This document shows, one piece after another, positions 18,727 through 36,286 of a stretch of DNA of 64,000 nucleotides (position 1 is the stretch's first letter; each line of letters begins with the position of its first letter). The translations under genes and the position numbers were made by a program. The notes under the pieces are model-generated. The model searched no databases. It was not told the DNA's origin and worked only from the letters and a program-made list of their open reading frames with translations. Location: positions 1,631 to 65,630 of the forward strand of contig NZ_JASGEX010000092.1 in NCBI RefSeq assembly GCF_047606085.1, given 5' to 3'. This DNA comes from Parafilimonas sp. (GTDB lineage: Bacteria > Bacteroidota > Bacteroidia > Chitinophagales > Chitinophagaceae).

Positions 18727-18730
18727 TGCT

Positions 18731-19155: not shown

Positions 19156-19257
19156 ATTTAGAATTTACAATTTATGATTAAAATTTGTTTTGAATTATAC
19201 ACATATAAAGCAATCAAACATAAATAAATCGTAAATCCAAAATCGTACATCGTAAAT
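19156..19257. repeat. Two opposed heptamer arrays: ATTTAGA/ATTTACA/ATTTATG (19156-19183) and CGTAAAT/CCAAAAT/CGTACAT/CGTAAAT (19230-19257)
   Basis: The second array is the reverse complement of ATTTACG and begins at the suhB stop codon. Confidence 0.8.
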
Positions 19258-22923: not shown

Positions 22924-23313
22924 ATGGTTATCAGGTTGCCTTTACGGTTTGAAGGAAGCAAAGGAGAACAAAATCTTTATGCATTATTTGATAGTGGCGC
23001 AACTTATTCCTGCATTAATGAAGAAATAGCAGAAGGGCTTGAAGTGTTTACAACACTTCATACACCCATGCGTATGGCAACCGCTACTGCTACTACAATC
23101 ATGGAAATCAAGAATCGTGTAACGCTCGATTTTTATCATTATGACACAAGGTTAACGGATGAATTTTATGTAATACCCGATTTGAGCGAACAGGTAATAA
23201 TCGGTGCTTCGACCATGCAGAAATGGAGAATAAAACTTGATTTTGAGAACGATACTATTATTCTTGACCCAACGGTTGCGAAGGCAATTTTAATAAACCT
23301 TATAAAACATTAA
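22924..23313 (+). CDS. Retropepsin-like (clan AA) aspartyl protease
   Basis: ALFDSGATYS catalytic motif, VIIG C-terminal motif, 129 aa single lobe. Confidence 0.85.
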   Translation: MVIRLPLRFEGSKGEQNLYALFDSGATYSCINEEIAEGLEVFTTLHTPMRMATATATTIMEIKNRVTLDFYHYDTRLTDEFYVIPDLSEQVIIGASTMQKWRIKLDFENDTIILDPTVAKAILINLIKH

Positions 23314-23327
23314 TCCTTTTATATCTT

Positions 23328-24959
23328 TTACTTCTTTTCATCTAATCTGTCTAACCATTGCCTGGCAGTAATATCATCCTGCACGGTTGATTGCATTAAC
23401 AAGTTAGCGCCTTTGGGAATATTGAGCGGAAATACGCAACGGCTATAATAGTTCAGTTGCTTTAACGTGTTTTCATCGTTGGCAAATGCATATAAAAAGC
23501 CCAGTGTGGTTTTGGCGGGGAGATAATTTTTATCGCTCGCTTTAGTAAGCATCTCAAAAGCCTCATTGCAATCCAGCCGGTCATTCTTTCCCTGCAATGC
23601 AAGGTTGGCATACTGAAACATGGCCTGCGGGATTTCCTGCTGCGCCAATGTTTGGTAAATATCGAGCGCAGCGTCTTTATTATTGGCTTTTAATAAATCC
23701 CTTGCATTGTTTAACTGCTGCTGTTGCTGCGGTGTTATACGCGTTAAAGAATCAGTGAGCAATGTTCTTCCGGCAGTATCACGGATATTGTTTTTATGGT
23801 TTAACTGGATGGCATATATAAAGATGGCTGCTACGAACAAGCCGGCAAGTATCCATAAGAAAACTTTAGGCGCACTGCTTTTCTTCTTTTGTATAAGTAT
23901 ATCTTCCCCTGAAGTGGTTTGATAAGAGGTAACGGTTATTTTGCCGGAACGAAACTGCTGCAATTCATTTTGCAGGTTCCTGTTCTGTTCAAGCAGCTTA
24001 CGGTTTTCCTGCTGCAACAATCTGATCTGGTCTGAAGCTTCGCCTTTTGCAAAGAAAACACTGTTTCTCACAACAAAGTCATGCAAGGCCATGCCGCTTG
24101 CAAACCTGTTTTCAGGCTTCTTCTCAAGACAGCGATATACCATTGTAAACAGCCACTCCGGTATCAGCATTTCACTTTCTTTCTTCTCACTATTCCATGA
24201 TTCCGGCAGCGCCTTTCCACGCAGCGCAAAAATATTGGGCGGCGTATTTTCCATGTGCGCAAGCATTACGGCATTGCGGGATGTTTCGCCTTTATCTTTT
24301 AACGGAAAGGGAACAACGCCGGCAAGGAGCTCAAACATCACCACGCCAAAACTGTACACATCTGTTTCAAACAACATGCGGCCTTCATTTTGTTCAGGCG
24401 CCATAAATTCTATTGCGCCCGCATGGCGCAGGCTGGTGCGCCTGTCTTCATCGCTCATGATGGCCAGGCCAAAATCAAGTAAAACATAATTGCCGGTACG
24501 CACATTAAATTTTATATTATTGCTTTTTATGTCCCCATGCTTTACATTAAAGCGATGGCAATGCGCCAGAGCGCCGGATAACTGTTCTGCTACCTTCAAA
24601 CATTCTTTTATAGTAAAAACAGGGTCGTGTGGCAGCTTTAATAATTCTTCCAGGTCAGGCCCTTCAATAAATTCCATTTCAATGTATGGAAAATTGCCTG
24701 TTTCCGTTACGCCGGAGCTGACGAGCTTTACAACATTGGGGTTGGGCTGCTCATTCACTTTTTTTAATTTCTGTACTTCATTCTGAAAATGGGTAAAGTT
24801 TTTATCATCGGCTGTTTCACTGTAAATAGGCGTGGGCAACAGTTTAATGGCGGTGATAATTTCGCCCATGCGCCGGCCTTTATACACAGATCCCTGGCCG
24901 CCTGTTTTAAGGGCACCCATAGTTTCCAGGCCTGATGTTATCGTAAAAACTTTACTCAT
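23328..24959 (-). CDS. Membrane Ser/Thr (Hanks) protein kinase with periplasmic SEL1-like repeats
   Basis: GGQGSVY, AIK, HGDIKSNN, DFG, APE, DVYSFG; coiled coil; one TM; AMFQYA/AKTTLGFLY SEL1-like tail. Confidence 0.9.
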   Translation of the reverse strand: MSKVFTITSGLETMGALKTGGQGSVYKGRRMGEIITAIKLLPTPIYSETADDKNFTHFQNEVQKLKKVNEQPNPNVVKLVSSGVTETGNFPYIEMEFIEGPDLEELLKLPHDPVFTIKECLKVAEQLSGALAHCHRFNVKHGDIKSNNIKFNVRTGNYVLLDFGLAIMSDEDRRTSLRHAGAIEFMAPEQNEGRMLFETDVYSFGVVMFELLAGVVPFPLKDKGETSRNAVMLAHMENTPPNIFALRGKALPESWNSEKKESEMLIPEWLFTMVYRCLEKKPENRFASGMALHDFVVRNSVFFAKGEASDQIRLLQQENRKLLEQNRNLQNELQQFRSGKITVTSYQTTSGEDILIQKKKSSAPKVFLWILAGLFVAAIFIYAIQLNHKNNIRDTAGRTLLTDSLTRITPQQQQQLNNARDLLKANNKDAALDIYQTLAQQEIPQAMFQYANLALQGKNDRLDCNEAFEMLTKASDKNYLPAKTTLGFLYAFANDENTLKQLNYYSRCVFPLNIPKGANLLMQSTVQDDITARQWLDRLDEKK

Positions 24960-25111
24960 TAATGTACCGGATAAACATTTATTTTAAACTATACAAAACG
25001 GCTTCAGCCTGCTAATAATACAAATATTTTCTTTGGCATACATGTTCATGCCAGACGATTTTTATTTTTATTCATACAATTGCGCTACGCTTTGTGCCGG
25101 GCGGTTGCTAC

Positions 25112-25420
25112 CGGTCTGACGCTTTGAAGCGTCTGACCGCGTTCCTGCTCTGCGAAGTCTCCTGACCATAGCTGTTCGAAACTATTTTCTTAAAGCCTCA
25201 CAGAGGCTTAATGTGTGTACAATGCTGCCCGTAATGTTTCTTTACCGTTCCATTGGAACGGAACGTTTACGCGCTCCACACCTACGGTGTGGAATCCCCC
25301 CTGGCACAATTATTTCCACACACGTGGGCGATTCTATGGATCGCGGATCGCTAATGCAGGTTTCGAACACTTGTGGTGCCCGGACTTCACAAGCCTTATG
25401 CGCGAAGTCTCCAACTTCAC
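25112..25420. repeat. Mosaic of at least five different REP-like hairpins
   Basis: Hairpins at 25112-25139, 25193-25209, 25245-25261, 25275-25293 and 25402-25420; GCGAAGTCTCC repeated at 25152 and 25402. Confidence 0.75.
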
Positions 25421-25436
25421 ATAAACACATCGTTCA

Positions 25437-26207
25437 TTATTCCGAATAACTAAACTCCAGCAATGCCGATTCACCCAAAATCACCTGGTCGCCTTCTTTT
25501 AAATGATAACCCACTTCCGTAGTGATCAGTTTTACTTCTGCGCCTTTTTCAGGTTTCACTTTCACTTTATTTGCCGGCGGAATGCCGCCTTCATCTGCAT
25601 ATAAAAAAAATGCGCCAAGCTCTTCATTCCACTCAATATGCGCATGCCGGCGGCTGATGGATTTATTGCTCTTGTTGCTGCTGCTGTCAGTAAAAGCGAT
25701 GTGGTTCTGGCGCAAATAACCATCGGCAACCTGCACATTTTTTTCACGGCCGATATTAATTTTTTTACCGGATGATGTAAGCGTGTAAACGGCCTGCTCC
25801 GCTTCACCATTCAATACCTTCAGGTAGGCAATTGCTTCCCGCCTGATAGCAGGCCGCTGCCGGGTTGATATAAATATAGCAGCATCAAGGCTTGCAGATT
25901 GTATAGCTTCCGGCGGCACCTCTTCCTCACAAAAAACCTGGAACTGCCAGCCTGTATGGAGGCTGATATCAAAATCATCGGCTATGCGCTGTATTTCTTC
26001 TCTAAACTGTTCGGTATCGTTTATATATACAGCGCTCTCGTATAAAAATTTATCCTGCGCATGGCAGTTGATATATAAATGCATGCCTTTAATATCGGCG
26101 CCTTCGCCTTCTGCTTTTTTTAATTGATCTTTAATAAAATCAAGCAGGTCGCTCCTTAATGTTTTTACATCTTTGGGCTGTTTGTCTTTTTTTAAGAAGC
26201 TAAGCAT
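25437..26207 (-). CDS. FHA domain protein
   Basis: Canonical IGR ... SISRRHAHI ... N motifs in the C-terminal half. Confidence 0.88.
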   Translation of the reverse strand: MLSFLKKDKQPKDVKTLRSDLLDFIKDQLKKAEGEGADIKGMHLYINCHAQDKFLYESAVYINDTEQFREEIQRIADDFDISLHTGWQFQVFCEEEVPPEAIQSASLDAAIFISTRQRPAIRREAIAYLKVLNGEAEQAVYTLTSSGKKINIGREKNVQVADGYLRQNHIAFTDSSSNKSNKSISRRHAHIEWNEELGAFFLYADEGGIPPANKVKVKPEKGAEVKLITTEVGYHLKEGDQVILGESALLEFSYSE

Positions 26208-26218
26208 ATTATCATTAT

Positions 26219-29200
26219 TTATTGTTGATTATTTGTATTGGGCTGATCACGGTTAACCGCAAGTTGTTGCTTTGCTATAACCGGCTCTTTCTTCACCGGT
26301 TTCTTTTTATCTTCTCCAAAACCTTTTATATAACCCATCTGTTCTAATACAGGAACAACATGTTTACCGGCAAGCTTAACCGCCACGCTTGAGCCCTGGC
26401 AGCTTTCAATGCGCACACAAACCACTATGTTACCACTGTCTTTTGGATTAGGTGCGAAGAAAACGTAAAGGCCATCGTTCACCCTTTCATTTTTCACAAT
26501 ACGCTCCGGTGTGCCTGTTTTGCCGGCAACGCTTATTCCCAATTTTGAAACTTTAGGAAGGCTTTGCTCGATCATATATTTTGTCATCAGCTTCGATGCA
26601 GAATCATTCGTTAACTCAATGCCCGGCGCCAGCTTTGTTTGTTTACCGCTTACTTTTAAAACATAACGGCTTTGCATCATCGTGCCGTTATTGGCAATAC
26701 CAGATGCCACACGGGCTACGGCGGCAGGTGTGGCAATTAACTCTCCCTGCCCCCAGGCCATGCCCGAAATGCCTTTACCTCTTGTTCTCCTGATGTTAGA
26801 GGGGTTATACGTTTTTAAACTGGCAAACTCGGTTTTACGCCATATATTTTTCCATGCCTCTTCCTGTTTTTTATTATTCATGTCATAATCATAATAATAG
26901 CCGCCAACGCCATGCAAAAACATGCCTGATTTCAAATACAGGTCGCCCATGTATTCCTGCAACTGCGATTCATTGGCAAGCCGTATAAAAAATGAATTAT
27001 TTGATCTTACAATAGCACGTTCAATATTTATATTACCCGCTTCATCAGGCTCATAACCTTTGGTACGTATAAGGTCTGCGGGATATACCTTAATAATTTT
27101 TTTTGCAGCAGCGAGGCCTAATTTATTAAATGCGGCAAGCGCCGTAACAAGCTTCGCCGTTGAACCAGGCTGCGATGCTATGGTGAAGCCAATATCGTTA
27201 TCTGTAATCCAGCCTGGCAGTTCATTTTGCTGCTGTGGGGAAAGATTAAGCTGATCCCAGTCGTTCACAGGCGGCAGGGGGTAATTGGCTGAAGCCAGCA
27301 CATCGCCGGTTTTATCTTCCATCACCACAACGGAAACCCGGTTGTTCACCAGCGAATCGTCGCTTTGCAATGATTGCTGTATCCTTGTTTGCAGGGCGGC
27401 ATCAAGCGTTAAATGCACATCGCGGTTTTTATTTTTGAATGCATCCACAGCAGCGCTGTTTATACCGGCAATTAATAAGGGCGCCAATGCGCTATAATCT
27501 TTCTTTTCCACACTCATCTCCGTTGATGTTTCCGGCAGAAAACGTTGCTCATGAAAACGTGTTGCACTTACGGAGAAACTGTTTTTGGGAACAGGGAAAC
27601 CACGCATCTCAGCCGCTTCGCAGTATTCGGCAAAATAACCATTGGATGCGCCATTGAATACATTGGTATTGGCATCGCCCGTCCAGAAAAACATTTGTGC
27701 GCCGAAAGGATAATAACGATCCTGCCGTTTATAAAACATGGCATTAATATCTTCTTCCGGTATGTTCAGGGCCAGCAAAGAATCGCGTTGTGTATTGATT
27801 AAATCCTGGTGGCTGGTGGCCAGTATGCGGCCATTCCTGTCCAACAAATTACCGGCCTGCAGCCTGTTCATTAAGATGCTGATGCGCGGGTTATAACTGA
27901 ACATTCTTGCGCCGCTCCTGTCTGCTACCAATGCCGGCTGCACAATCCACTGCGTATTATTGAATAAATATTTTGAGACGCTCACGCCAAGCAGTACAAT
28001 GCCCGCACATGCGGCCATTAATGCGGGCATAAGGTTTTTATCCTGTTGCTGCGATATAAATTTCATTTGCACAGGCGAGCCCTGCACCGTTGAGGCAGAT
28101 AATAAAAATCCTGCTGCCAGCATATTGACTATTAATGACGAGCCGCCATAACTCATGAACGGCAGGGCCACACCCGATAAAGGCAGGGCGCCCACTGACC
28201 CTCCTGCAATCAGCAAAAACTGAACAAAGGTGGCAATACCGATTCCCGAGCATATATAAAATAAAAACGGCCGTCCCGAATGCCGGCCTATAACAATGGA
28301 ACGGTGCAGATAAATGAAAAACACAATGAACACGCTTATAATTCCCATGAAGCCAAACTCCTCTCCCATGGCCGGCAATATCATATCTGTATGCGCTTCC
28401 GGGATTGTTTTAGCAAACCCCTCTCCTGCGCCCTGCCCGGTTACGCCGCCGCTTGACATGGCCCAGATTCCGTTTGCAATCTGGTCGCCGCCAAACACTT
28501 CATTATTCCATGGATCCTGCCAGATAGCTTTACGATCAATTAACCTTTCCATAGGCCCGGGAAAATATTGTGCGATCAATGGTATTGTATCCAGCAGCAA
28601 AAATGCTGCAATAACCACCAAAGCCATCACAGACGATTCGCTTAATTTCTTTGTAACCGCCAACGTGTAGATAACAAAAAATACAGCGGTAACAGCCGTA
28701 GCTGTTAATACATTATCCAGTAACCAAACAGCGAGCACATAAAATAATACAGATATAATTATATGCAAAAAATCGCCCCTCGAAAAAGAAAATAAAATAA
28801 TAAAGGTGAAACAGCAAACCATGGCCGGGCCTAAATCGCCCAGCATTAAAAAGAGAAATATGGTTGCGAGTATGGCAACTAATGCAAACACAAAGAACCG
28901 GCTTCGCTTTGTCCAGGTAAAATAAGAAGAAATAAATTTTTCATTGGTGGCAAAGAAACCGGCAAGGAAAAATACAATAACAAATTTTACAATTTCACTT
29001 GGCTGAAAACCAAAGAGATTTACTTTAACGCCGCTGCCTTCAGGGCCGGTACCAAACATCAATGTCATGGCAAGCAGGCCTGATGCGATAACAGCCCAGG
29101 GCCATCCGTTTGAAGCAAGCTTCATTTTGCTGAAAACAAATAAGCGATAGCGTTTTGAATCGGTTGTAAAACGCTTTAGATCGAATAATAACAACAGGAT

Positions 29201-30367
29201 CATCCCAAGAATGCCGGCAATAAAATAGCCGGTTGTATTTCTTGCCAGGAACCAGTCGCGCAAGGGATCCTGCAGGCTAAACAAGGTTATAAAAGATAAA
29301 CCGGTAATCACCATTACGGCCGGAAGTATTAGCTGGTCAGCATGTTTAAACCACACGCTCATAATTATATGCAATAAGAGAAATCCTGCAATAAAAGAAA
29401 TGGAGATGATCCAGAACCATTGCATTACTTCATCCGGGGTTCTTACAATAAACGCTTTTTCTTTTTTTAATGAACTGAAATCTTTTGTTGAAAAAAGTTT
29501 TAAGCGATGCGGTGAACGGTAGAAATTAAACGATGCATCATGGTCTAATTTTTCTATGCCCTGCGCATAACCGAAAGCATAATTCATTTGCAGCGGAAGC
29601 ACCTGGTAGGTTTTGTTGTCCGGAAGGTTTTTGAAAGAGAAACGGCCCTTTGCATCTGTTTGTGTATAGGCAATCAACGATTGCAGCTGTTTATTGTTTA
29701 ATGAATCAACGGCATAGGTTTTTCTTACCGTGATGGTACTCTGCTGCAGCATGCTGTCAATCTCTTCCACGGTATTGCTGTATAAACTATCCTGCGGTAA
29801 AACCAGTTGCAGACGAACAATAACATTTGGCACAGCAGCGCCCGCCTCCTGTATTAACCCGTTAATGCTATGGCTGCCTGCATGCAGATCGTTAACTGAA
29901 TTAATGGCGGAAGCATTTTTCTGCTGCCATGCAAACAGCGCACTGTCTTTACCGGTTATGCCCAGGGCCATTCTTTCGCTCCTTACTCTTTTCTTAAAAG
30001 ATTCGCCGCCCTGCGCCAGGGCTGTTTCTGCGGGAACACTGTATTGTTTTTTATTGAGATCGCCTATATTATCTATTGCAACGCTGTCTGCCAGCCTGGA
30101 CTTTTCAAAAGTTGAACTAATCAGGTTAATATCTTTTTCATCGCTGAAGTAACGGCCCTTTTGCAGCAGCATTTGCATGTTCCTGGCATAGTGTGCATCA
30201 TTCAGGTTAATCATTGTGCCATTTTTCACACGTTCCGGAACGTCTTTAAAACCGGCATGTATAACCAGGTACATTTTATAAAAAAGCACAGCCATTACCG
30301 CAGCTATCAGCAGCAAGAAAATTCTTTCCGTATTCCTGTTTATATGCGGGCCTGCTTTTGCATTCAT
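26219..30367 (-). CDS. SEDS glycosyltransferase (RodA/FtsW) fused to class B penicillin-binding transpeptidase
   Basis: FQPSEIVK, GDLG, AHTDM..GEEFG, LPFMSYGGSS; then GSTAK (SxxK), SNN (SxN), KTG. Confidence 0.92.
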   Translation of the reverse strand: MNAKAGPHINRNTERIFLLLIAAVMAVLFYKMYLVIHAGFKDVPERVKNGTMINLNDAHYARNMQMLLQKGRYFSDEKDINLISSTFEKSRLADSVAIDNIGDLNKKQYSVPAETALAQGGESFKKRVRSERMALGITGKDSALFAWQQKNASAINSVNDLHAGSHSINGLIQEAGAAVPNVIVRLQLVLPQDSLYSNTVEEIDSMLQQSTITVRKTYAVDSLNNKQLQSLIAYTQTDAKGRFSFKNLPDNKTYQVLPLQMNYAFGYAQGIEKLDHDASFNFYRSPHRLKLFSTKDFSSLKKEKAFIVRTPDEVMQWFWIISISFIAGFLLLHIIMSVWFKHADQLILPAVMVITGLSFITLFSLQDPLRDWFLARNTTGYFIAGILGMILLLLFDLKRFTTDSKRYRLFVFSKMKLASNGWPWAVIASGLLAMTLMFGTGPEGSGVKVNLFGFQPSEIVKFVIVFFLAGFFATNEKFISSYFTWTKRSRFFVFALVAILATIFLFLMLGDLGPAMVCCFTFIILFSFSRGDFLHIIISVLFYVLAVWLLDNVLTATAVTAVFFVIYTLAVTKKLSESSVMALVVIAAFLLLDTIPLIAQYFPGPMERLIDRKAIWQDPWNNEVFGGDQIANGIWAMSSGGVTGQGAGEGFAKTIPEAHTDMILPAMGEEFGFMGIISVFIVFFIYLHRSIVIGRHSGRPFLFYICSGIGIATFVQFLLIAGGSVGALPLSGVALPFMSYGGSSLIVNMLAAGFLLSASTVQGSPVQMKFISQQQDKNLMPALMAACAGIVLLGVSVSKYLFNNTQWIVQPALVADRSGARMFSYNPRISILMNRLQAGNLLDRNGRILATSHQDLINTQRDSLLALNIPEEDINAMFYKRQDRYYPFGAQMFFWTGDANTNVFNGASNGYFAEYCEAAEMRGFPVPKNSFSVSATRFHEQRFLPETSTEMSVEKKDYSALAPLLIAGINSAAVDAFKNKNRDVHLTLDAALQTRIQQSLQSDDSLVNNRVSVVVMEDKTGDVLASANYPLPPVNDWDQLNLSPQQQNELPGWITDNDIGFTIASQPGSTAKLVTALAAFNKLGLAAAKKIIKVYPADLIRTKGYEPDEAGNINIERAIVRSNNSFFIRLANESQLQEYMGDLYLKSGMFLHGVGGYYYDYDMNNKKQEEAWKNIWRKTEFASLKTYNPSNIRRTRGKGISGMAWGQGELIATPAAVARVASGIANNGTMMQSRYVLKVSGKQTKLAPGIELTNDSASKLMTKYMIEQSLPKVSKLGISVAGKTGTPERIVKNERVNDGLYVFFAPNPKDSGNIVVCVRIESCQGSSVAVKLAGKHVVPVLEQMGYIKGFGEDKKKPVKKEPVIAKQQLAVNRDQPNTNNQQ

Positions 30368-31791
30368 CTTTCGTGAACAATGGTTTTAGCGGAATCAATT
30401 TTTAATAAAGCGCTGTCTGAAATAACGCCGGATACATATATATCACCGGGCAGGCTTACAGCATACAAAACAGGCGCAATACAGTTTTTAAACCGTACAT
30501 CTTTTAAATGCACAGACGTATTGCGGGCAATGAATGCTGTATTAAAGCTTTGAAATGTTATACTGTCGAGCAGCACATATTTGCATTGCGGGAAGAAAAT
30601 AAAAGCTGCTTCGTTATAACCTGAATCGGCAACGAATGTGGCATTATTGCCGTGAATAATCAGCGTATCTGCCTTTATAAGCAATGAATCGTTTATAACG
30701 ATTTTAGGGTTATTGCCAAAAAGGGTTCTTAATGAAATAATATTTGATTTCGAGTTCCTTATGCTGTCTGATAATTGTACAACCTGGCTGTTTCTTGCAA
30801 CCGCAGGTTCATCTGCAATAACGGTTTGTGTATTATCTTTTATAAAATAATCCTTGTAAATAAACCAGGCAAGCGCAGCGAGCAGCAGCAGGAAAAGCAC
30901 TATCAAAAAACGAGCGCCTGCGCCGCTGCTTTTCTTAACCGCCACTTCCTTCTGAATGTATTCCACGCGCTGTGGTTCTGTAATTACTTCCTCCGCACCT
31001 GCCTTCTTTACAACGGGCCTGGTTGCTTCATACTGTGAAGGCGATTTATCATTCTTAATTAAAACAACGGTTATATTATCTTTTCCGCCGGCAAGATTGG
31101 CGGCATCAATTAAAGCGGCAGATTTTTCTTTCAGGCTGTGCGATGAACTTAAAATGCCGGCGATGGTGCGGCTGTTAATCATATCATACAGGCCATCGCT
31201 GCAGAGCAATAAAGTATCACCCGGCAAAAAAGGTGATTCGCCTGTTTCAATATAATCTGATTCCAAAAATTTTTCTTCATCAAAGCCCAATGCTTTATTG
31301 ATTTCATTTCGTTTGGGATGGCTCATCGCGGCTTCTTCCGTTAAGCGGCCGCTTTCCTCCAAAAAGCCGACAAAGGAATGATCATGCGTAACCTTTACCA
31401 GCGAGTTATCACGAAAGAGATATAATCTTGTATCGCCCACATGCGCGTAATAAAATTTGTTTTCATTTATATCAGCCAGTGCAAGCGTTACCACGCAAGC
31501 CATTTGGGCATGTTCCGCGCTTGTTTGTTTTTTTTCAACAATCTTTTTACTTGCCCCGGCCATTGCGGTTTTCAGTATATCAATTATATCGCCCGAAGCG
31601 TTTTTTAATGTATTAAGAATAGCTGTACGGGCAAGCGCTGCCGCCACTTCACCGCCTTCATATCCGCCCACACCGTCAATAACACAGCCAACAATATATT
31701 TATCATGTACGATCGTCTGGGCAATAAAGTTATCTTCATTATTGTCGCGCATTTTGCCTGTATCCGTATTGCCGTAAAAGTTATCAGCCAT
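30364..31791 (-). CDS. PP2C/PstP-like Ser/Thr phosphatase with TM and periplasmic beta-helix-like domain
   Basis: RDNNED, DGVGG, VGDTR, CSDGL, GGKDNIT; one TM. Confidence 0.92.
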   Translation of the reverse strand: MADNFYGNTDTGKMRDNNEDNFIAQTIVHDKYIVGCVIDGVGGYEGGEVAAALARTAILNTLKNASGDIIDILKTAMAGASKKIVEKKQTSAEHAQMACVVTLALADINENKFYYAHVGDTRLYLFRDNSLVKVTHDHSFVGFLEESGRLTEEAAMSHPKRNEINKALGFDEEKFLESDYIETGESPFLPGDTLLLCSDGLYDMINSRTIAGILSSSHSLKEKSAALIDAANLAGGKDNITVVLIKNDKSPSQYEATRPVVKKAGAEEVITEPQRVEYIQKEVAVKKSSGAGARFLIVLFLLLLAALAWFIYKDYFIKDNTQTVIADEPAVARNSQVVQLSDSIRNSKSNIISLRTLFGNNPKIVINDSLLIKADTLIIHGNNATFVADSGYNEAAFIFFPQCKYVLLDSITFQSFNTAFIARNTSVHLKDVRFKNCIAPVLYAVSLPGDIYVSGVISDSALLKIDSAKTIVHER

Positions 31792-31885
31792 CGTTCCTGT
31801 GCGTTTTTTTTACATCGCGAAAATTCGCAGCCAGCAGCAACAGGCAAACAATAAACAGCGATGATGAAAGAATGATATTTAGCAT
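31784..31885 (-). CDS. Small 33-aa single-pass membrane protein (not in ORF track)
   Basis: MLNIILSSSLFIVCLLLLAANFRDVKKTHRNDG; its stop overlaps the PP2C start (ATGGCTGA). Confidence 0.55.
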   Translation of the reverse strand: MLNIILSSSLFIVCLLLLAANFRDVKKTHRNDG

Positions 31886-31910
31886 GGTTGATGTTTTTTG
31901 AACATTTTTT

Positions 31911-32095
31911 TCGTCAAACGTGAATCGTCAAACGTGAATGTAACAATGTTCATTTTTTTATATTCCCAATTGATATTTATACTTCGAATTATCAAATTAC
32001 TTTAAACAGACTGCCTTCAACACCTAAAATATTTTGACTGCTGCATTCCAAAAAACCTTTCAGGGTTTTCACGTTTGACGATTGACGTTTCACGT
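31911..32095. repeat. Inverted heptamer arrays (TCGTCAA/ACGTGAA)x2 ... TTCACGT/TTGACGA/TTGACGT/TTCACGT around a 129-bp spacer
   Basis: 32068-32081 is the exact reverse complement of the 14-mer repeated at 31911 and 31925. Confidence 0.8.
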
Positions 32096-33049
32096 TCATG
32101 ATTTAAAAATATTCACGCCCACAATACCATTCAGCACAATACGTGAATTAAGCGGCAACGGAACCCATACCGGGTTATCCATATCGCTCGCCACTACTTC
32201 ATTTTCATTCACCAGCGTTTTTTCCCCAAAAGAAGCGAGATAAAATTTATGGTCATCCTTATTAAATTTCACGCGCAAATGCGGCGTATTCACCCATTCT
32301 GACGGTATGCGGAAAATATCTTCCTTATCAGCAGCTTCATCCTTACCTGAAATAAGCACATCCGGTTCGCGCATGTAATATTCAATTTTTTTCCCTGCAA
32401 ATTCTTTATCAGGCACAATCGTCTCAAACCTTGCAAGGAGCTTAGGCGCACCGTTTTTTACAACTGTATCCTGCATGCGGAAATGCGGGTTGTAAGCAAT
32501 TTCATAATAGCCGTCGCTGTAAAAGATAAAGCCATCCAGTAATTCGGGGTTTACATCAAAGGTTTCCGCAATACCCGTTTGCCTTGGAATGAAAGTAACG
32601 CGCACACTTTCTTTTTTCTGCTGCAGGCTGCCTGGCATTAGTTTGCCGATTACACTTTTATCGCCGGGCAAATATTCAGGATGCGCTGCAAAACGAAACA
32701 CCCATTTATTGGAAGCCGGCGCTACTATTTTTCCTTCATTGTGGCAGCGTTCGAGAATATTGTAAAACTGTTTTATACATTCCTGTACAATCAGCCCGAA
32801 AATGCCTTTTTTATTTTGCGCGAACTGGTTGTAATCATCTTCATTAAAACACACGATGTATTCATGAAAGAAAACAACGCGGTTAGCGAATGAGAGCTCT
32901 TTTATGGAATCTTCAAATCGCTGAACAATATATTTATATACATCAGCAGCAGTAAGCGGCTGCGTTTGTTTTACATTATAGGTTGCTTCACGTTTAAGGA
33001 ACCATTCGTGAAAGCCCATGCGCTGCCAGAAAGAAGTTTTAGTTTTCAT
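32096..33049 (-). CDS. FhaA-like protein: DUF3662-like N-domain plus degenerate FHA-like C-domain
   Basis: FFHEYIVCFNEDDY resembles the FhaA N-domain; the C-terminal beta-rich region lacks canonical GR/SxxH; operon context. Confidence 0.55.
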   Translation of the reverse strand: MKTKTSFWQRMGFHEWFLKREATYNVKQTQPLTAADVYKYIVQRFEDSIKELSFANRVVFFHEYIVCFNEDDYNQFAQNKKGIFGLIVQECIKQFYNILERCHNEGKIVAPASNKWVFRFAAHPEYLPGDKSVIGKLMPGSLQQKKESVRVTFIPRQTGIAETFDVNPELLDGFIFYSDGYYEIAYNPHFRMQDTVVKNGAPKLLARFETIVPDKEFAGKKIEYYMREPDVLISGKDEAADKEDIFRIPSEWVNTPHLRVKFNKDDHKFYLASFGEKTLVNENEVVASDMDNPVWVPLPLNSRIVLNGIVGVNIFKS

Positions 33050-33505
33050 CTAATCTTTATTTTTTTTACCGAAAAGCCTCTTAAAAAAGCCGGGTTTTTT
33101 TTCAGGCTCTTTATTTTGAGGCGCCGGATTTACCGTTCTTTTCACTTTACGCTCTGCTGCAAGGCCCTGGTTTAATACAGCCGTATCGCTTGCCAAAACA
33201 TTTATTATATGACCGTTGTATTGCTGAACATGCTGAGCGTTATTCAGCCAGATGGCATGCGATTCACTGTGCAAAACCTGTTTATTGCCAAGCGTAGCAG
33301 GCTCTTTGCCGGAAGCCACAAACAGCGAATCCCAGGTTTGGCCGCCGTCTAAAGAATAGATATATTCTTTATTCCCAACATCGTAATATATATTTTTCTC
33401 CGGATAATAATGAAATTCATAGTCTTTCTGCAAAACACTGTTACAGGAAGAAGCCATTAAAATAAAAGCCGTAGAAAAACAAAACAGTATGGCAGATTGT
33501 TTCAT
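33050..33505 (-). CDS. Hypothetical lipoprotein
   Basis: Lipobox MASSC; basic amphipathic tail KKPGFFKRLFGKK; stop abuts the next start. Confidence 0.7.
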   Translation of the reverse strand: MKQSAILFCFSTAFILMASSCNSVLQKDYEFHYYPEKNIYYDVGNKEYIYSLDGGQTWDSLFVASGKEPATLGNKQVLHSESHAIWLNNAQHVQQYNGHIINVLASDTAVLNQGLAAERKVKRTVNPAPQNKEPEKKPGFFKRLFGKKNKD

Positions 33506-33670
33506 GCACAAGGTTTATCTCAAAGATTATTCCACTAAAACGAAAATTATAAGAAATACTTATACGGACAAACTTTCAGAACTGTTAGAAGAAATGTAAT
33601 TTATGAAAAAAGGGAACAATACGCAAACCCTCAAAGTTTTTTGCGTTTGGCGATTTATACAAGCCGCTCA

Positions 33671-36286
33671 TCATCTTATTAAAACAAAAGTGCCCTTTTT
33701 AAAGTAAGGCTTGTTATTATAATCTGTTGCCGCCACAACGTAAACGTAAGTGCCGCTTGGTTGTTTATTGCCATTGTATGTGCCATCCCAGCCTTTGTTT
33801 GGCGTTCCGGTATTGAAAAGCAACTGGCCCCAGCGGTTATAAATTCTCAGGTAGGAAAACTGTTTCATCCCGGCAACTGTTATTTTATATACATCGTTCA
33901 CACCATCTCCATTGGGTGTAAAAGCTGTGGGTATAAATACTTCGGGGCCTGTTTCAAAAATATATATCTTAATGCTGTCGTAACTGTAGCAGCCTTCCGG
34001 CGTGCTTACCTTCACGCTGTATGTAACCGTATCGGGCCCGTCTGTAAATGTTGCAACCGGATTGGCTATAAACGGATTGCTTAAATTAGATGAGGGTGAC
34101 CATTCATAATTGGTGCCGCCTGTTGCATTAAGCTGCAATGGCTGCTGCCTTACAATAACCGTATCGTTACCGGCATCAGCAATTACTTTTGGAATAACGG
34201 TTACCACAACCGAATCGCTTACAGGTTTGGGGCAGCCAATTGTATCTGTTACCGACAGCACATACGTTGTTGTTGATTGCGGCCCGGCAATGGGCGATAA
34301 ACTTTCCGGATTAATAAGCGAGCTTACCGGCGCCCATGAAAAGACGGAGCCTTCAATGCTTGCATTCAACTGGGTTGTATTACCATAACAAATACTTACA
34401 TCGCTGCCGGCATCAGCAGTGGGATATGGCGCTACCGTTACGTTCATTGCATCTGTGGCCGTGCATTTTCCTACAGAAGCCGTAAGCGTATATTGTGTGC
34501 TTGACAAAGGAGCAGCCATGGGCGCCTTTGTGGTATCGCTGCTTAAGCCGTCTGCCGGCTGCCACAAAAAGTAAAGTGCATTGGTTGATGGCGTAATCTG
34601 TATGCTGTCGGTTTTACAGATAGCCGTATCGGCAGGCAGTTCCAGCAATACTTTATCAATAACATTCACGGTAACCGAGTCTTCTGCTTCGCAACCTTTA
34701 TAATTTACCGTGAGATTATAGACAGTGGTTTGTTTTGGGTAAACATAAGGATTGGCGGTATTGGCATCAATTATATTATATGCCGGCAGCCAGCTAAATG
34801 TGGCGCCGGCTGTGGTGGAAGATGCATTCAGCCTTAGCGTGTCAATGCTGCAGATAAGCGTATCCCTGAAGCCGAGAGATACATCGGGACCGGTGCTAAC
34901 ATCAAGCGCTTTGGTAGCAGTGTCTATGCAACCTTTGGAACTGGTTGAGATCAATGTTATTGTTTTTTGCCCGGTATCTGTATAATTATAAACAGGGTTT
35001 TGGATGGTATCGTCCAATGTGCCGGTTTCGCCAAAATACCATTTCCATGAATCCACATAACCATATTTTGTGGTGGTGAGGTCTGTGAAATTGTATGGAT
35101 TGAAGATGCAACTGCCATCAATGGAAAAATCTGTGGCAAAGCCCGGGTAAATTTTCACTTCCGTTTCTGCGGAATCTTCGCAGCCGGCCGTGTTTTGCGC
35201 TTTTAGTTTAACCGTGTAAACGCCTGTATCAGGATAAGTATAGGTGGGCTGCGCTTCTGATGAAGTATCTGTGGTTAAAGTGGTAACGCCAAAATCCCAG
35301 AAATATGTATAGTCAGCGCTTGTGCCTGCCCCATTCACAAAGGTAAAATCAAAGCCATCGCAGGATATATAGGAAGAATCTAACCGGGCCCCGCCTGTTT
35401 TACAGTTAGAAACCTCAAGGTGCAATTCTTTTCTTGTATGCCCGATGTAAACACCGTTCCGGTATTCGTCAATGCAAACGGCAGCTACATAGGTGCCTGT
35501 GGTTGCAGGGGCGGTGCCGGAAAATATGCCGGTTGCCGGATCAATGGAAGCGGCCGAGCCAAGCGGCTGGGAACCTGAATACGGAGATGTATAGGAAATA
35601 GAACTGTATGGCGGCGCCGGGGGATCTTCTACTACGGGCTCTAACTCGGTGCCCCCGGTTAAGCCGCTGCATAATGAATATACGAGGGAATCGCCGTCTA
35701 TATCTTCCGCAGAAAAATCGAAGGAGAAAGGCGAGCTTACGCAAATGGCAGAAGCATCATTGAAGCTAAATACCGGGCTGTTATCCTCACTGTTGCTTCC
35801 GCCCGGTATGCTTAGGGTATAAGTTAGCCCAACTGTATTGGACGAAGGCACATTTTCAATGCCGGAAATGCGGCAGCACCGCTGCACCGTAAGCACATAA
35901 CCGCTTTCGTTTTCGGGAACGCCAATGGTGGTAGTATATACAGCCACAAGATAACATACATCGGGCGGGTTTTGAAAGCAGGGCCCGAAATCGCTTTTTG
36001 ATTCTTTAGACAAGCTTGTTTCAGCAACGTATTTAACCATTAAGGAAGACGTGGAATTACCGGCAAATACGGCAAGATAAATACCTGCATCCACCTTTTC
36101 GGCCTGGTCGCAATCAGAATACTGATAAAAGGAAATTTTGTAATTAAGCGTGCTGCCTGTTTTACCGGTATAGGTATATTTCATCCAGCCGCCTTTAAGA
36201 TGATCTGCATAGGATTTTTGTGCTGATAATAAACATACCAATACAAACAATAACTTAAAAATATGTAAATGCCTATGCCACGTCAT
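33671..36286 (-). CDS. PKD-domain surface protein with T9SS type B (gliding-motility-associated) C-terminal domain
   Basis: PKD WDFG/WYFG repeats; FIPTAFTPNGDGVND, IYNRWG, WDG, GTYVY, KGTFVLIR. Confidence 0.92.
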   Translation of the reverse strand: MTWHRHLHIFKLLFVLVCLLSAQKSYADHLKGGWMKYTYTGKTGSTLNYKISFYQYSDCDQAEKVDAGIYLAVFAGNSTSSLMVKYVAETSLSKESKSDFGPCFQNPPDVCYLVAVYTTTIGVPENESGYVLTVQRCCRISGIENVPSSNTVGLTYTLSIPGGSNSEDNSPVFSFNDASAICVSSPFSFDFSAEDIDGDSLVYSLCSGLTGGTELEPVVEDPPAPPYSSISYTSPYSGSQPLGSAASIDPATGIFSGTAPATTGTYVAAVCIDEYRNGVYIGHTRKELHLEVSNCKTGGARLDSSYISCDGFDFTFVNGAGTSADYTYFWDFGVTTLTTDTSSEAQPTYTYPDTGVYTVKLKAQNTAGCEDSAETEVKIYPGFATDFSIDGSCIFNPYNFTDLTTTKYGYVDSWKWYFGETGTLDDTIQNPVYNYTDTGQKTITLISTSSKGCIDTATKALDVSTGPDVSLGFRDTLICSIDTLRLNASSTTAGATFSWLPAYNIIDANTANPYVYPKQTTVYNLTVNYKGCEAEDSVTVNVIDKVLLELPADTAICKTDSIQITPSTNALYFLWQPADGLSSDTTKAPMAAPLSSTQYTLTASVGKCTATDAMNVTVAPYPTADAGSDVSICYGNTTQLNASIEGSVFSWAPVSSLINPESLSPIAGPQSTTTYVLSVTDTIGCPKPVSDSVVVTVIPKVIADAGNDTVIVRQQPLQLNATGGTNYEWSPSSNLSNPFIANPVATFTDGPDTVTYSVKVSTPEGCYSYDSIKIYIFETGPEVFIPTAFTPNGDGVNDVYKITVAGMKQFSYLRIYNRWGQLLFNTGTPNKGWDGTYNGNKQPSGTYVYVVAATDYNNKPYFKKGTFVLIR

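What the first reader, a model, noticed from the sequence alone, without database searches (positions are those of the whole stretch)
23328..33505. Actinobacterial-style fhaA-pstP-rodA-pbpA-pkn cell-wall phospho-signalling operon in a Gram-negative Bacteroidota
One strand with abutting or overlapping genes: lipoprotein, FhaA-like, micro-protein, PP2C, SEDS-bPBP fusion, FHA, Ser/Thr kinase. The order parallels the conserved Mycobacterium fhaA-fhaB-pstP-rodA-pbpA-pknA-pknB cluster. All kinase, phosphatase, SEDS and transpeptidase motifs are intact. It implies an accessory, phosphorylation-controlled peptidoglycan synthase separate from the Rod and divisome systems. I know of no characterisation in this phylum but cannot verify novelty.
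Basis: partly seen in the sequence, partly recalled or inferred. Interest (0 to 1): 0.8.

Follow-up and report, generated by a model that had tools for sequence, protein, structure and literature searches.

The report
Kinase-controlled fused cell-wall synthase operon
A soil Bacteroidota bacterium carries a tightly packed gene set in which a fused cell-wall-building enzyme sits with a protein kinase, a phosphatase, two phosphothreonine-reader proteins and a 33-residue membrane peptide. The set is conserved in hundreds of Gram-negative species but nobody has tested what it does.

Summary
All seven genes lie on the minus strand at 23328-33511, and the catalytic motifs are intact.

- **Micro-protein:** the 33-aa micro-ORF is real. 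It recurs in about 70 of 75 related loci, with dN/dS about 0.26.
- **Conserved core:** the order FhaA-like, TM micropeptide, PP2C, SEDS-bPBP fusion, FHA, kinase(s) is the same in about 80 Chitinophagaceae and Sphingobacteriaceae genomes. At least 565 species genomes encode a relative of the fusion.
- **Other phyla:** the same module occurs in contigs whose fusion proteins are named Rhodothermales or group with Acidobacteriota-named ones.
- **Functional link:** some relatives fuse the PP2C onto the synthase.
- **Lipoprotein:** it is lineage-specific and not part of the core.

The "actinobacterial-style" reading is only partly right. Gene content and order parallel fhaA-pknB. However, the kinases are non-RD (HGD) and have no PASTA domain. 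There is no FhaB. The SEDS part scores best with FtsW and the transpeptidase part with PBP2/MrdA. Nothing points to a specific actinobacterial origin.

A 2025 survey noted one Pedobacter example of the fusion flanked by a kinase and a phosphatase. I found no functional study.

Most likely this is an accessory peptidoglycan synthase controlled by phosphorylation. Regulation is inferred, not shown. Two checks could not be made: co-transcription, and whether this genome also has mrdAB and ftsWI.

I rate it a new variant of a known kind, interest about 0.6.

The parts
33050..33511 (-). 153-aa lipoprotein-like gene. The ATG at 33505 gives MKQSAILFCFSTAFILMASSC... It is an accessory, lineage-specific neighbour, not a core member.
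   Evidence: ORF; signal peptide plus Cys; no Pfam or NCBIfam hit. It lies upstream of p317 only in Parafilimonas, Segetibacter and some Ferruginibacter. It lies after the kinases in L001 and L039, and is absent in Sphingobacteriaceae. Identity falls to 24-36% outside the genus.
32096..33049 (-). FhaA-like adaptor 'p317' (317 aa). It has an N-terminal alpha/beta domain (res ~30-136), an invariant low-confidence linker (res ~137-200, RVTFIPRQTGIAETFDVN) and a C-terminal divergent FHA domain (res ~200-310, with GK and N-T-P-H in place of GR and S-x-x-H).
   Evidence: No Pfam, NCBIfam or PDB sequence hit. 1660 homologs, all named 'hypothetical'. AF2 model. Foldseek top 50 hits are all FHA domains, including Rv0020c/FhaA entries 2lc1 and 3oun. 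The N-domain alone gives Rv0020c_Nter 2lc0 at rank 3 with the best TM-score (0.40/0.42), but E is about 1. Positional equivalents in distant loci hit PF12401 FhaA_N at E = 0.003-0.06 and PF00498, and the p317 HMM hits them.
31886..32095 (.). Spacer of about 210 bp with 27-nt terminal inverted repeats (31912-31938 and 32068-32094). It is a lineage-specific insertion between p317 and the micro-ORF.
   Evidence: In most relatives the micro-ORF follows the p317 stop directly.
31784..31885 (-). Conserved 33-aa membrane micro-protein, MLNIILSSSLFIVCLLLLAANFRDVKKTHRNDG. It has one TM helix and a basic, presumably cytoplasmic tail with a conserved Thr/Ser. Its stop overlaps the PP2C start by 8 nt.
   Evidence: ORF. 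Synonymous-rich divergence against P. terrae and L006. Present in about 70 of 75 loci between p317 and PP2C. Median pairwise dN/dS is 0.26. TM micro-ORFs sit at the same position in the distant loci L083, L084, L086, L087 and L088. It is mostly unannotated: 8 of 10 variants are absent from the 15-billion-protein collection.
30364..31791 (-). Membrane-anchored PP2C (PPM) Ser/Thr phosphatase. Catalytic domain at res 1-250, TM at 293-311, extracytoplasmic C-terminal domain at 312-475.
   Evidence: PF13672 and PF00481. Stp1/IreP NF033484 scores 203 bits, below its 230 cutoff. PDB best hits are tPphA, PstP and Stp1. Motifs and TM. Homologs in the distant loci carry a Beta_helix C-domain. The window's C-domain has no detectable sequence match.
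29354..30367 (-). N-terminal module of the fusion (res 1-338): TM 18-36, a periplasmic domain of about 280 aa with a CarboxypepD_reg-like beta-sandwich hint, and TM 320-338.
   Evidence: Hydropathy. PF13620 is sub-threshold at 0.0028. PF13620 is recognised in Rhodothermales homologs. This N-terminal stretch ahead of the SEDS match is present in most long fusion relatives.
28088..29353 (-). SEDS glycosyltransferase domain (res ~339-760). It is a single domain of 10 TM helices by analogy with RodA and FtsW.
   Evidence: PF01098. The TIGR02210 RodA model aligns res 345-760 to model positions 2-354 in one stretch. FtsW scores 157 bits and RodA 139 bits, both far below their equivalog cutoffs of about 337. 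Invariant Q455, E458 and D661. PDB profile scores: FtsW 134, MrdB 96, RodA 83 bits.
26219..28087 (-). bPBP part. It comprises a TM anchor (779-797), a non-canonical linker or 'pedestal' region (~800-1010) and the transpeptidase domain (~1011-1340, with S1069-x-x-K, S1122-x-N and K1283-T-G).
   Evidence: PF00905. No hit to PBP_dimer PF03717, to the PBPA_dimer domain PF21922, or to anything else in res 798-1010. Profile scores against PDB: Thermus PBP2 116, MrdA 108, PBP2a 106, Mtb PbpA 100, FtsI about 58 bits.
25437..26207 (-). Second FHA protein (256 aa). It has a conserved N-domain of unknown fold and a canonical FHA domain (invariant G153-R154, S185-R-x-H188, N213).
   Evidence: PF00498. 20-sequence alignment. 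Orthologous FHA genes lie directly after the synthase in the Acidobacteriota-type and Rhodothermales-type loci.
24960..25436 (.). Unusually long FHA-to-kinase spacer. It contains an insertion of about 250 nt (25152-25412) bounded by the 11-nt direct repeat GGAGACTTCGC. The insertion is strongly structured.
   Evidence: RNA fold z-score is -4.4. No Rfam match. The spacer is 165 bp in P. terrae, and in most relatives the two genes abut or overlap.
23328..24959 (-). Hanks-type Ser/Thr kinase (543 aa). It has a non-RD (HGD) catalytic domain (res 1-300), a coiled coil (~308-337), a TM helix (366-384) and a periplasmic Sel1/TPR-like domain (385-543). There is no PASTA domain.
   Evidence: PF00069. 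NF033483 scores 135 bits against a cutoff of 450. Motifs and TM. Sub-threshold Sel1 and TPR hits. A Rhodothermales homolog carries PF08238 Sel1. PDB best hits are S. aureus Stk1, StkP and PknB. HGD is found in 108 of 110 cluster kinases.

Best explanation
This is a conserved, operon-like six-gene module of diderm bacteria. It encodes a self-contained, extra peptidoglycan synthase together with its own Ser/Thr phospho-signalling set.

The enzyme is a natural fusion. It comprises an N-terminal TM hairpin with a periplasmic domain of about 280 aa, a SEDS glycan polymerase and a class-B transpeptidase. Polymerisation and cross-linking are therefore hard-wired 1:1.

Inferred mechanism:
1. One to three membrane kinases (non-RD Hanks type, dimerising through a coiled coil, with Sel1/TPR-like periplasmic domains) sense an envelope cue and phosphorylate Thr residues on cytoplasmic partners. 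The best candidates are the invariant linker of the FhaA-like protein (T152, T158, T163) and the basic tail of the 33-aa TM micro-protein (T28).
2. The two FHA proteins read these phosphothreonines and switch the synthase on or off, or place it in the cell. The micro-protein acts as the membrane tether or co-factor.
3. The membrane PP2C, which has its own periplasmic domain, resets the system.

Shown here: gene content, motif integrity, fold assignments, deep synteny, purifying selection on the micro-ORF, and PP2C-synthase fusions.

Inferred only: enzymatic activity, who phosphorylates whom, the signal sensed, the physiological role, and accessory status relative to RodA-PBP2 and FtsW-FtsI. 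Possible roles include stress repair or a change in cell shape or cell type.
For: - Domains and motifs.
- Topology fits a SEDS C-terminus inside the cell, followed by the bPBP anchor.
- Same gene order and strand in about 80 genomes of two orders, at 43-64% protein identity.
- At least 565 GTDB species genomes hold a relative.
- More than 140 clusters (at 50% identity) of long fusions.
- The same module (FHA, micro-TM, PP2C, STK, fusion, FHA) is present in contigs whose fusion proteins group with, or are named, Acidobacteriota and Rhodothermales.
- PP2C is fused to the SEDS-TPase in L083, L085, P0448 and P0452. This is a Rosetta-stone link between the phosphatase and the synthase.
- 4-nt and 8-nt start/stop overlaps suggest translational coupling.
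- The micro-ORF is under purifying selection.
- FHA fold of p317. Canonical pThr-binding residues in the second FHA protein.
- In Pedobacter ginsengisoli the homolog coexists with FtsI/FtsW and MrdA/RodA: PMC12516126.
- The analogous actinobacterial locus controls wall synthesis: PMC6554272.
Against: - There are no expression or phosphorylation data. No sequencing run holds this stretch.
- The kinase is separated from the other genes by 477 bp here and may have its own promoter. This is also reported for pknA/pknB.
- The p317 FHA domain lacks the canonical Arg and Ser (register), so pThr binding by it is uncertain.
- No conserved Thr was found in cytoplasmic parts of the synthase itself.
- The region that should be the bPBP pedestal, which is needed to activate SEDS in known pairs, has no recognisable sequence match.
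- Presence of canonical mrdAB and ftsWI in this genome was not checked.
Confidence: 0.6

Rival explanations
1. The fusion is the organism's primary elongation (RodA-PBP2) or division (FtsW-FtsI) synthase, not an extra one. The signalling genes would then tune the core machinery, as PknB does in mycobacteria.
For: The TPase profile is closest to PBP2/MrdA and the SEDS profile to FtsW. In Actinobacteria the equivalent locus encodes the main RodA (PMC6554272). I could not verify that this genome has separate mrdAB and ftsWI genes.
Against: Scores are far below the FtsW, RodA and MrdA equivalog cutoffs: 157 and 139 against about 337, and 85 against 455. There is no mre or dcw context in the 64-kb window. 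Pedobacter ginsengisoli, which carries the homologous fusion, retains FtsI/FtsW and MrdA/RodA (PMC12516126).
Confidence: 0.08
2. The cluster is a recent horizontal acquisition from Actinobacteria or Firmicutes. On this view it is a transplanted fhaA-pknB locus.
For: The gene content and order resemble fhaA-(fhaB)-pstP-rodA-pbpA-pkn. That locus is documented only in Actinobacteria and some Firmicutes.
Against: GC content of 0.40-0.45 matches the surrounding window. The module is conserved with vertical-looking divergence across Chitinophagaceae and Sphingobacteriaceae. It is also present in Cytophagales and in contigs whose fusion proteins are named, or group with proteins named, Rhodothermales and Acidobacteriota. 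There is no preferential similarity to actinobacterial proteins. It has no PASTA domain and no FhaB, and it has a different kinase class (HGD).
Confidence: 0.03
3. The kinase, phosphatase and FHA genes are general signalling genes with other targets. They would be merely co-located with a constitutively active synthase.
For: Bacterial Hanks kinases usually have many substrates. The kinase copy number varies from 1 to 4 and their ectodomains are variable. The kinase is set apart by a long spacer in this window.
Against: The linkage has survived across three phyla. PP2C is physically fused to the synthase in several lineages. Overlapping start and stop codons link the micro-ORF, PP2C and fusion.
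Confidence: 0.1

Closest known systems
Actinobacterial fhaA-fhaB-pstP-rodA-pbpA-pknA-pknB cell-wall and division locus (M. tuberculosis Rv0020c-Rv0014c)
   Same: - Both start with an FHA adaptor that has an N-domain, a long linker and a C-terminal FHA domain.
- A small membrane protein comes next.
- A TM-anchored PP2C with an extracellular domain follows.
- Then come SEDS and a class-B PBP, then Hanks kinase(s).
- All genes are on one strand and tightly packed. In the mycobacterial locus the kinase genes have separate transcription start sites, and a separate promoter here is possible but untested.
   Different: - SEDS and PBP are fused here and carry an extra N-terminal periplasmic module.
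- The gene in the second position is a TM peptide of about 30 aa with no FHA domain.
- A second FHA gene follows the synthase.
- The kinases are non-RD (HGD) with Sel1/TPR-like ectodomains instead of PASTA.
- The host is a diderm.
- There is no specific sequence affinity to the actinobacterial proteins.
[quoted passage not shown]
   Same: It is very probably the same family. Pedobacter homologs of the window protein are 55-58% identical over the full length and have identical neighbours. The paper also reports no canonical pedestal and coexistence with FtsI/FtsW and MrdA/RodA.
   Different: - The paper describes one example and calls for future study.
- In the passages I read it does not report the FHA genes, the micro-protein, the breadth of conservation or the PP2C fusions.
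- Its 'two GTase domains in tandem' is probably a single SEDS domain split by HMM matching. The RodA model aligns res 345-760 in one stretch.
Other natural SEDS-bPBP fusions and accessory pairs: the Senegalimassilia (Coriobacteriia) RodA-PbpA fusion flanked by kinase and phosphatase genes, the Rhodococcus jostii fusion, and SpoVE-SpoVD
   Same: They combine a SEDS polymerase with a class-B transpeptidase, either in one polypeptide or as a dedicated extra pair. Some lie next to Ser/Thr kinase and phosphatase genes.
   Different: Those fusions are about 930-950 aa and have a recognisable pedestal or PBPA_dimer domain. They lack the N-terminal periplasmic module and occur in monoderms. SpoVE/SpoVD are unfused and specific to sporulation.
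StkP/PhpP-MacP-PBP2a of Streptococcus pneumoniae, where a small membrane protein is phosphorylated to activate a PG synthase
   Same: This is a working analogy for the micro-protein. A short single-pass membrane protein with a cytoplasmic Thr would act as a phospho-dependent co-factor of a peptidoglycan synthase. The basis is the abstract listed and my own knowledge.
   Different: There is no sequence relationship. MacP is about 100 aa and acts on a class A PBP. Phosphorylation of the micro-protein here is untested.

Membership tests
Actinobacterial fhaA-pknB locus | FhaA: N-terminal FhaA_N (PF12401/DUF3662) domain, long linker and C-terminal FHA domain | tested here: inconclusive
   The FHA fold is met (Foldseek E = 2e-6, including hits to FhaA itself). 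The linker is present. p317 itself gives no FhaA_N hit. Homologous or positional equivalents hit PF12401 at E = 0.003-0.06. The N-domain model matches Rv0020c_Nter 2lc0 at rank 3 with the best TM-score of 0.40, but E is about 1 and pLDDT is 61.
Actinobacterial fhaA-pknB locus | FhaB/FipA: a small protein with a TM helix plus an FHA domain as the second gene | tested here: not met
   The second gene is a 33-aa TM peptide with no room for an FHA domain. The other FHA protein (256 aa) has no TM helix and lies after the synthase.
Actinobacterial fhaA-pknB locus | PstP-type TM-anchored PP2C | tested here: met
   PP2C motifs are intact, with a TM helix at 293-311 and an extracytoplasmic C-domain. 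PstP structures 1txo and 2cm1 hit at 6e-27 to 1e-26.
Actinobacterial fhaA-pknB locus | Separate rodA and pbpA genes, with PbpA carrying a PBPA_dimer domain | tested here: not met
   There is a single 1382-aa ORF. There is no PF21922 or PF03717 hit. The SEDS part is closer to FtsW than to RodA by score.
Actinobacterial fhaA-pknB locus | PASTA-domain kinase (PknB/Stk1 family) | tested here: not met
   No PASTA hit. NF033483 scores 135 bits against a cutoff of 450 and aligns the kinase domain and the following stretch (res 18-425), not the ectodomain. The ectodomain is Sel1/TPR-like. The catalytic loop is HGD, not HRD.
SEDS (FtsW/RodA/SpoVE) glycosyltransferases | PF01098 domain with the conserved periplasmic-loop Glu/Lys motif and the catalytic Asp in the large extracellular loop | tested here: met
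   PF01098 at 5.6e-47. Q455-P-S-E458-x-x-K461 and H-T-D661 are invariant or nearly so across 31 diverse fusions. Equating D661 with the catalytic Asp rests on motif analogy (my own knowledge), not on an alignment to a solved structure.
Class B penicillin-binding proteins | SxxK, SxN and KTG active-site motifs in a PF00905 domain behind an N-terminal TM anchor | tested here: met
   S1069TAK, S1122NN and K1283TG are invariant. PF00905 at 1.7e-24. TM helix at 779-797.
Class B penicillin-binding proteins | Pedestal (PBP_dimer PF03717) domain that contacts and activates the SEDS partner | tested here: not met
   Res ~798-1010 match no Pfam family. PDB profile matches begin only at the TPase domain.
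Hanks-type (eukaryotic-like) Ser/Thr kinases | Catalytic Lys, the HxD catalytic loop with a downstream Asn, DFG and APE | tested here: met
   AIK39, H141-G-D-I-K-S-N-N, DFG162 and APE187. PF00069 at 1.8e-33. Activity was not tested.
FHA phosphothreonine-binding domains | Conserved G-R, S-x-x-H and N residues of the pThr pocket | tested here: met
   The 256-aa protein meets this. G153-R154, S185-R-x-H188 and N213 are invariant in 20 orthologs. The 317-aa protein does not. It has G235-K236 and N254-T-P-H257, although its orthologs in the Acidobacteriota-type and Rhodothermales-type loci are canonical.

The most novel reading that the evidence does not exclude
Many FCB-group bacteria and Acidobacteriota may possess a third SEDS-bPBP machine that has not been characterised. 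It would be a single-chain synthase switched by phosphothreonine signalling. Its key switch or co-factor would be a conserved TM micro-peptide of about 30 aa, largely unannotated, working with a degenerate FhaA-like adaptor. If so, phospho-regulated wall synthesis with the FhaA/PstP/PknB logic would be an ancient, cross-phylum invention and not a speciality of monoderms.
Probability: 0.35. Interest if true: 0.75.

Novelty: new variant of a known kind. Interest (0 to 1): 0.6.

Why it matters
Control of SEDS-bPBP synthases is a central open topic in bacterial cell biology and a target area for antibiotics. Phospho-control by Hanks kinases, PP2C and FHA proteins has been worked out almost entirely in monoderms (Actinobacteria, Firmicutes).

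This module puts the same logic into diderms. The synthase is a natural single-chain fusion, which is convenient for biochemistry and structural work. The PP2C is sometimes fused on as well.

The module also comes with a conserved micro-protein that annotation pipelines mostly miss. It offers a tractable system, for example in Pedobacter or Mucilaginibacter, for three questions:
- How do phosphothreonine readers switch a peptidoglycan polymerase?
- What envelope cue do kinases without PASTA domains sense?
- Why do soil Bacteroidota and Acidobacteriota keep a third synthase?

It matters less as a surprise. The fusion and its kinase and phosphatase neighbours were already pointed out for one Pedobacter species in 2025.

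Tried and rejected
- **RNA families:** Rfam found nothing in the whole window or in the 477-bp spacer. No tRNA was found.
- **Co-transcription:** no public sequencing run holds the stretch, so this could not be tested.
- **Promoters and terminators:** the sigma-70 promoter and terminator scan was not above the shuffled background. A Bacteroidota-type -33/-7 pattern gave no hit in the cluster. No promoter claim is made.
- **p317 by sequence:** the sequence and its profile against PDB gave nothing. hhalign of p317 against the 256-aa FHA family was not significant. The two FHA proteins are therefore not demonstrable paralogs outside the FHA core.
- **p317 N-domain by structure:** the only suggestive match to FhaA_N has E of about 1. 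It is kept as inconclusive.
- **Taxonomy of distant loci:** look-ups of the distant proteins gave only one organism name, Emticicia, and look-ups of their neighbour genes gave none. The last homology search then supplied the Rhodothermales and Acidobacteriota names.
- **2025 paper supplements:** none are held as text.
- **Extracytoplasmic domains:** those of the PP2C and the kinase show no sequence similarity to their counterparts in other phyla. Calling them beta-helix and Sel1 rests on weak hits and on analogy.
- **Rejected readings:** a T6SS-type Fha/PpkA/PppA module or a phage-defence kinase. There are no such neighbour genes, and the weak kinase hits to the defence families (MAD6 with two stretches, best at res 115-288; BREX PglW at res 50-217) lie within the kinase domain.
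- **Literature:** searches for any functional study in Bacteroidota or Acidobacteria found none.

Full report
**What is there**

On the minus strand of 23328-33511 the ORF map shows seven genes:
- a 153-aa lipoprotein-like gene (33511/33505-33050);
- a 317-aa gene, called 'p317' here (33049-32096);
- a 33-aa micro-ORF (31885-31784);
- a 475-aa PP2C (31791-30364);
- a 1382-aa gene (30367-26219);
- a 256-aa FHA gene (26207-25437);
- a 543-aa kinase (24959-23328).

Pfam and NCBIfam confirm several of these. The PP2C is Stp1/IreP-like. The 1382-aa protein carries SEDS PF01098 plus Transpeptidase PF00905. The 256-aa protein has FHA just above the gathering score. The last gene has Pkinase.

The lipoprotein stop abuts the p317 start. 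The micro-ORF stop overlaps the PP2C ATG by 8 nt. PP2C and the fusion overlap by 4 nt. The FHA gene follows the fusion after 11 nt.

Two spacers break the 'abutting' picture. One is 210 bp between p317 and the micro-ORF. The other is 477 bp between the FHA gene and the kinase. Both hold lineage-specific insertions (see below).

The window is ordinary chromosome of a diderm. It carries gyrA, LptF/G, TonB, a T9SS CHU_C protein and peptidases, with no mre, mrd or dcw genes. GC across the cluster (0.40-0.45) is like its surroundings. The closest named genome is Parafilimonas terrae, Chitinophagaceae, at 90% identity for the fusion.

**Anatomy of the proteins**

*Catalytic motifs.* All expected motifs are present:
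- Kinase: AIK39, H141-G-D, DFG162, APE187.
- PP2C: RDNNED, DGVGG, DG199, GGKDN.
- SEDS: QPSE..K at 455-461 and H-T-D661.
- Transpeptidase: S1069TAK, S1122NN, K1283TG.

The SEDS and TPase residues are invariant in an alignment of 31 fusion proteins that reaches down to 29% identity.

*The fusion.* Hydropathy gives a coherent topology. The N-terminus is inside the cell. TM 18-36 leads to a periplasmic domain of about 280 aa, then TM 320-338 returns to the cytoplasm. A ten-TM SEDS domain follows, ending inside. TM 779-797 then acts as the bPBP anchor, and the periplasmic PBP follows.

The RodA model aligns res 345-760 in one stretch. There is therefore one SEDS domain, not two. The N-terminal periplasmic domain has only a weak CarboxypepD_reg hint. 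That family is recognised outright in Rhodothermales homologs. The stretch where a bPBP pedestal should be (~800-1010) matches nothing.

*The kinase.* It has a coiled coil, one TM helix and a Sel1/TPR-like ectodomain. It has no PASTA domain. Its HGD catalytic loop is shared by 108 of 110 kinases in the related loci.

*The PP2C.* It has a TM helix and a 164-aa outer domain.

**The 'FhaA-like' gene**

p317 has no Pfam, NCBIfam or PDB sequence match. It does have 1660 homologs of nearly fixed length, all named 'hypothetical'.

An AlphaFold model shows two folded domains joined by a low-confidence linker (mean pLDDT 63). Foldseek places the C-terminal domain firmly in the FHA fold. The top 50 hits are all FHA domains, with E down to 2e-6, and include M. 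tuberculosis FhaA (2lc1, 3oun).

The pThr-pocket residues are altered. p317 has G-K and N-T-P-H where the 256-aa protein has the canonical G-R and S-R-x-H.

For the N-domain the evidence is weak but points one way:
- The p317 profile matches the gene at the same position in distant loci over both domains (1.4e-19).
- Three such positional equivalents give sub-threshold hits to Pfam FhaA_N (0.003, 0.003 and 0.06) plus clear FHA hits.
- The N-domain modelled alone finds the Rv0020c N-terminal structure 2lc0 at rank 3, with the best TM-score in the list (0.40). Its E-value is about 1.

I call this 'FhaA-like architecture; family membership inconclusive'.

The 'disordered' linker is almost invariant (RVTFIPRQTGIAETFDVN, with T152, T158 and T163). 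A basic Thr-rich motif recurs there in other phyla.

**The micro-protein is real**

The 33-aa ORF is MLNIILSSSLFIVCLLLLAANFRDVKKTHRNDG. It differs from P. terrae and another MAG mostly by synonymous changes.

An equivalent ORF of 28-36 aa lies between p317 and PP2C in about 70 of 75 loci. It has one TM helix and a basic tail, HF.D(I/V)K.(S/T)..., and usually overlaps the PP2C start. Median pairwise dN/dS is 0.26.

TM micro-ORFs sit at the same place in distant loci. These include the Acidobacteriota-type loci (VTTLYWARLVFLAVLLVMAGALAALAFNRRKR) and the Rhodothermales locus (MFDFLFLIVLLAVAGGLLWQHHTDQRSR).

Eight of ten variants are absent from the 15-billion-protein collection. The rest are annotated 'hypothetical'. 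The gene calls supplied for L001 and L002 miss it.

**Conservation and spread**

The best 80 are Chitinophagaceae (Parafilimonas, Segetibacter, Ferruginibacter, Flavisolibacter) and Sphingobacteriaceae (Mucilaginibacter, Pedobacter, Daejeonella, Hufsiella).

In essentially all of these the order on one strand is p317, micro-ORF, PP2C, fusion, FHA, then one to three kinases. Sphingobacteriaceae have an extra kinase upstream. Identity across the two orders is 43-59% for all five larger proteins. The lipoprotein accompanies the cluster only in a few genera, and sometimes at the other end. It is not core.

An exhaustive representative search found 363 clusters at E<1e-30. Almost all of the top 150 are long fusions of 1100-1770 aa. 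One is from Emticicia, Cytophagales.

A further search, seeded from a distant member, reached proteins named Rhodothermales, 'Bacteroidota bacterium', and many Acidobacteriota (Thermoanaerobaculia, Blastocatellia, Bryobacteraceae).

Their contigs carry the same module:
- In the Acidobacteriota-type contigs L086 and L087 (the L087 fusion is named Thermoanaerobaculia; the L086 fusion is unnamed but groups with the Acidobacteriota-named ones): FHA, micro-ORF, PP2C with a beta-helix domain, kinase, fusion, FHA.
- In the unnamed contig L084, whose closest named relative is Rhodothermales: kinase, FHA, micro-ORF, PP2C, fusion, FHA.
- In Rhodothermales L088: kinase, FHA, micro-ORF, PP2C with a beta-helix domain, a kinase with Sel1, a kinase with LRR, the fusion with CarboxypepD_reg, FHA.

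In several lineages the PP2C is fused to the N-terminus of the SEDS-TPase (L083, L085, P0448, P0452). This is the strongest sequence-level sign that the phosphatase acts with the synthase.

**Comparison with the actinobacterial locus**

Both have an FHA adaptor, a small membrane protein, a TM-anchored PP2C, SEDS, a bPBP, then kinase(s). The mycobacterial locus is documented as conserved in Actinobacteria and a subset of Firmicutes (PMC6554272).

Membership fails on several defining features:
- There is no PASTA kinase.
- There is no FhaB (TM plus FHA).
- SEDS and PBP are one gene, without a PbpA-type dimer domain or a canonical pedestal.

Nearest solved relatives are not preferentially actinobacterial:
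- SEDS: FtsW of Pseudomonas scores above MrdB and RodA.
- TPase: Thermus PBP2, MrdA and PBP2a score slightly above Mtb PbpA and far above FtsI.
- PP2C: cyanobacterial tPphA scores above PstP and Stp1.
- Kinase: S. aureus Stk1 scores above StkP and PknB.

All scores are far below NCBIfam equivalog cutoffs. I read this as a distinct, old diderm version of the same design, not a transplanted actinobacterial operon. A proper domain phylogeny was beyond the tools.

**How it probably works**

Everything in this section is inferred.

The fusion makes glycan strands with its SEDS part and cross-links them with its TPase part. The kinases sense something in the periplasm through variable ectodomains and dimerise through the coiled coil. 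They phosphorylate cytoplasmic Thr residues. The best candidates are the invariant p317 linker and the tail of the micro-protein.

The canonical FHA domain of the 256-aa protein, and perhaps the degenerate one of p317, binds these phosphothreonines. This would activate, inhibit or position the synthase. The PP2C reverses the phosphorylation.

I found no conserved Thr in the cytoplasmic loops of the synthase itself.

The physiological role is open. It could be envelope-stress repair or a change in shape or cell type.

Accessory status rests on three points. Scores for FtsW, RodA and MrdA are low. The genomic context is neither dcw nor mre. The published statement for Pedobacter ginsengisoli says it keeps FtsI/FtsW and MrdA/RodA (PMC12516126). 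I could not check this genome.

**Novelty**

PMC12516126 (2025) shows the Pedobacter homolog flanked by phosphatase and kinase genes and says it deserves study. Four other full-text searches found no functional work in these phyla.

To my knowledge the following are new here:
- the six-gene definition of the module;
- the conserved micro-protein;
- the FHA assignment of the 'hypothetical' p317 family;
- the non-RD kinase signature;
- the PP2C-synthase fusions;
- the spread to contigs assigned to Rhodothermales and Acidobacteriota.

It is a new variant of a known kind of system, and it is untested experimentally.

**Limits**

- There are no expression data.
- Both structure models have modest confidence (pLDDT 61-63).
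- Taxon names for distant loci come from database labels of homologs. Only L087 and L088 carry a named fusion. L086 is assigned by similarity, and L083, L084 and L085 have no confirmed taxon.
- The top-80 limit hides how far the module reaches into other Bacteroidota classes.

Noticed in passing
window 25152-25412 (within spacer 24960-25436): An insertion of about 250 nt lies between the FHA gene and the kinase. It is bounded by the 11-nt direct repeat GGAGACTTCGC and folds far better than shuffled sequence (z = -4.4). It has no Rfam match and is absent from P. terrae. A 58-nt piece (86% identity) occurs in the opposite orientation in the same spacer of a related MAG (L003). It could be a MITE-like element or a structured RNA.
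   Followed up: partly
window 31886-32095: An insert of about 210 bp lies between the p317 stop and the micro-ORF. It has 27-nt terminal inverted repeats (31912-31938 and 32068-32094, 93% complementary). It is shared with P. terrae and absent in most relatives. This is a second small insertion inside the same operon.
   Followed up: partly
window 22924-23313 (+): A 129-aa retropepsin-like aspartyl protease ORF lies right after the kinase gene. Three Pfam families pass their cutoffs (PF12384, PF13650, PF00077), with E-values near 1e-5. No gene is called at the corresponding place in P. terrae.
   Followed up: no
window 18726-18755 and 19226-19255: A 30-nt inverted repeat made of TTACGATTT-like units brackets the 119-aa ORF at 18786-19145. 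The P. terrae counterpart of that ORF hits the 23S_rRNA_IVP family.
   Followed up: no
related loci L001-L082; L084, L086-L088: 108 of 110 kinases linked to this module in Chitinophagaceae and Sphingobacteriaceae have HGD instead of HRD in the catalytic loop. The two Acidobacteriota-type loci L086 and L087 also have HGD. The Rhodothermales-type loci L084 and L088 have HRD.
   Followed up: partly
L086 1266-2126 and L087 957-1712: In the Acidobacteriota-type versions of the module, a YkuD-family L,D-transpeptidase gene sits divergently next to the FhaA-like gene.
   Followed up: no
window 8446-9828 (-): A 460-aa ORF next to gyrA has no Pfam match at E<1e-5.
   Followed up: no
window 33671-36286 (-): An 871-aa PKD/CHU_C (type IX secretion) surface protein lies directly upstream of the cluster. 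It is syntenic in P. terrae but not in more distant relatives, so it is probably unrelated to the module.
   Followed up: partly
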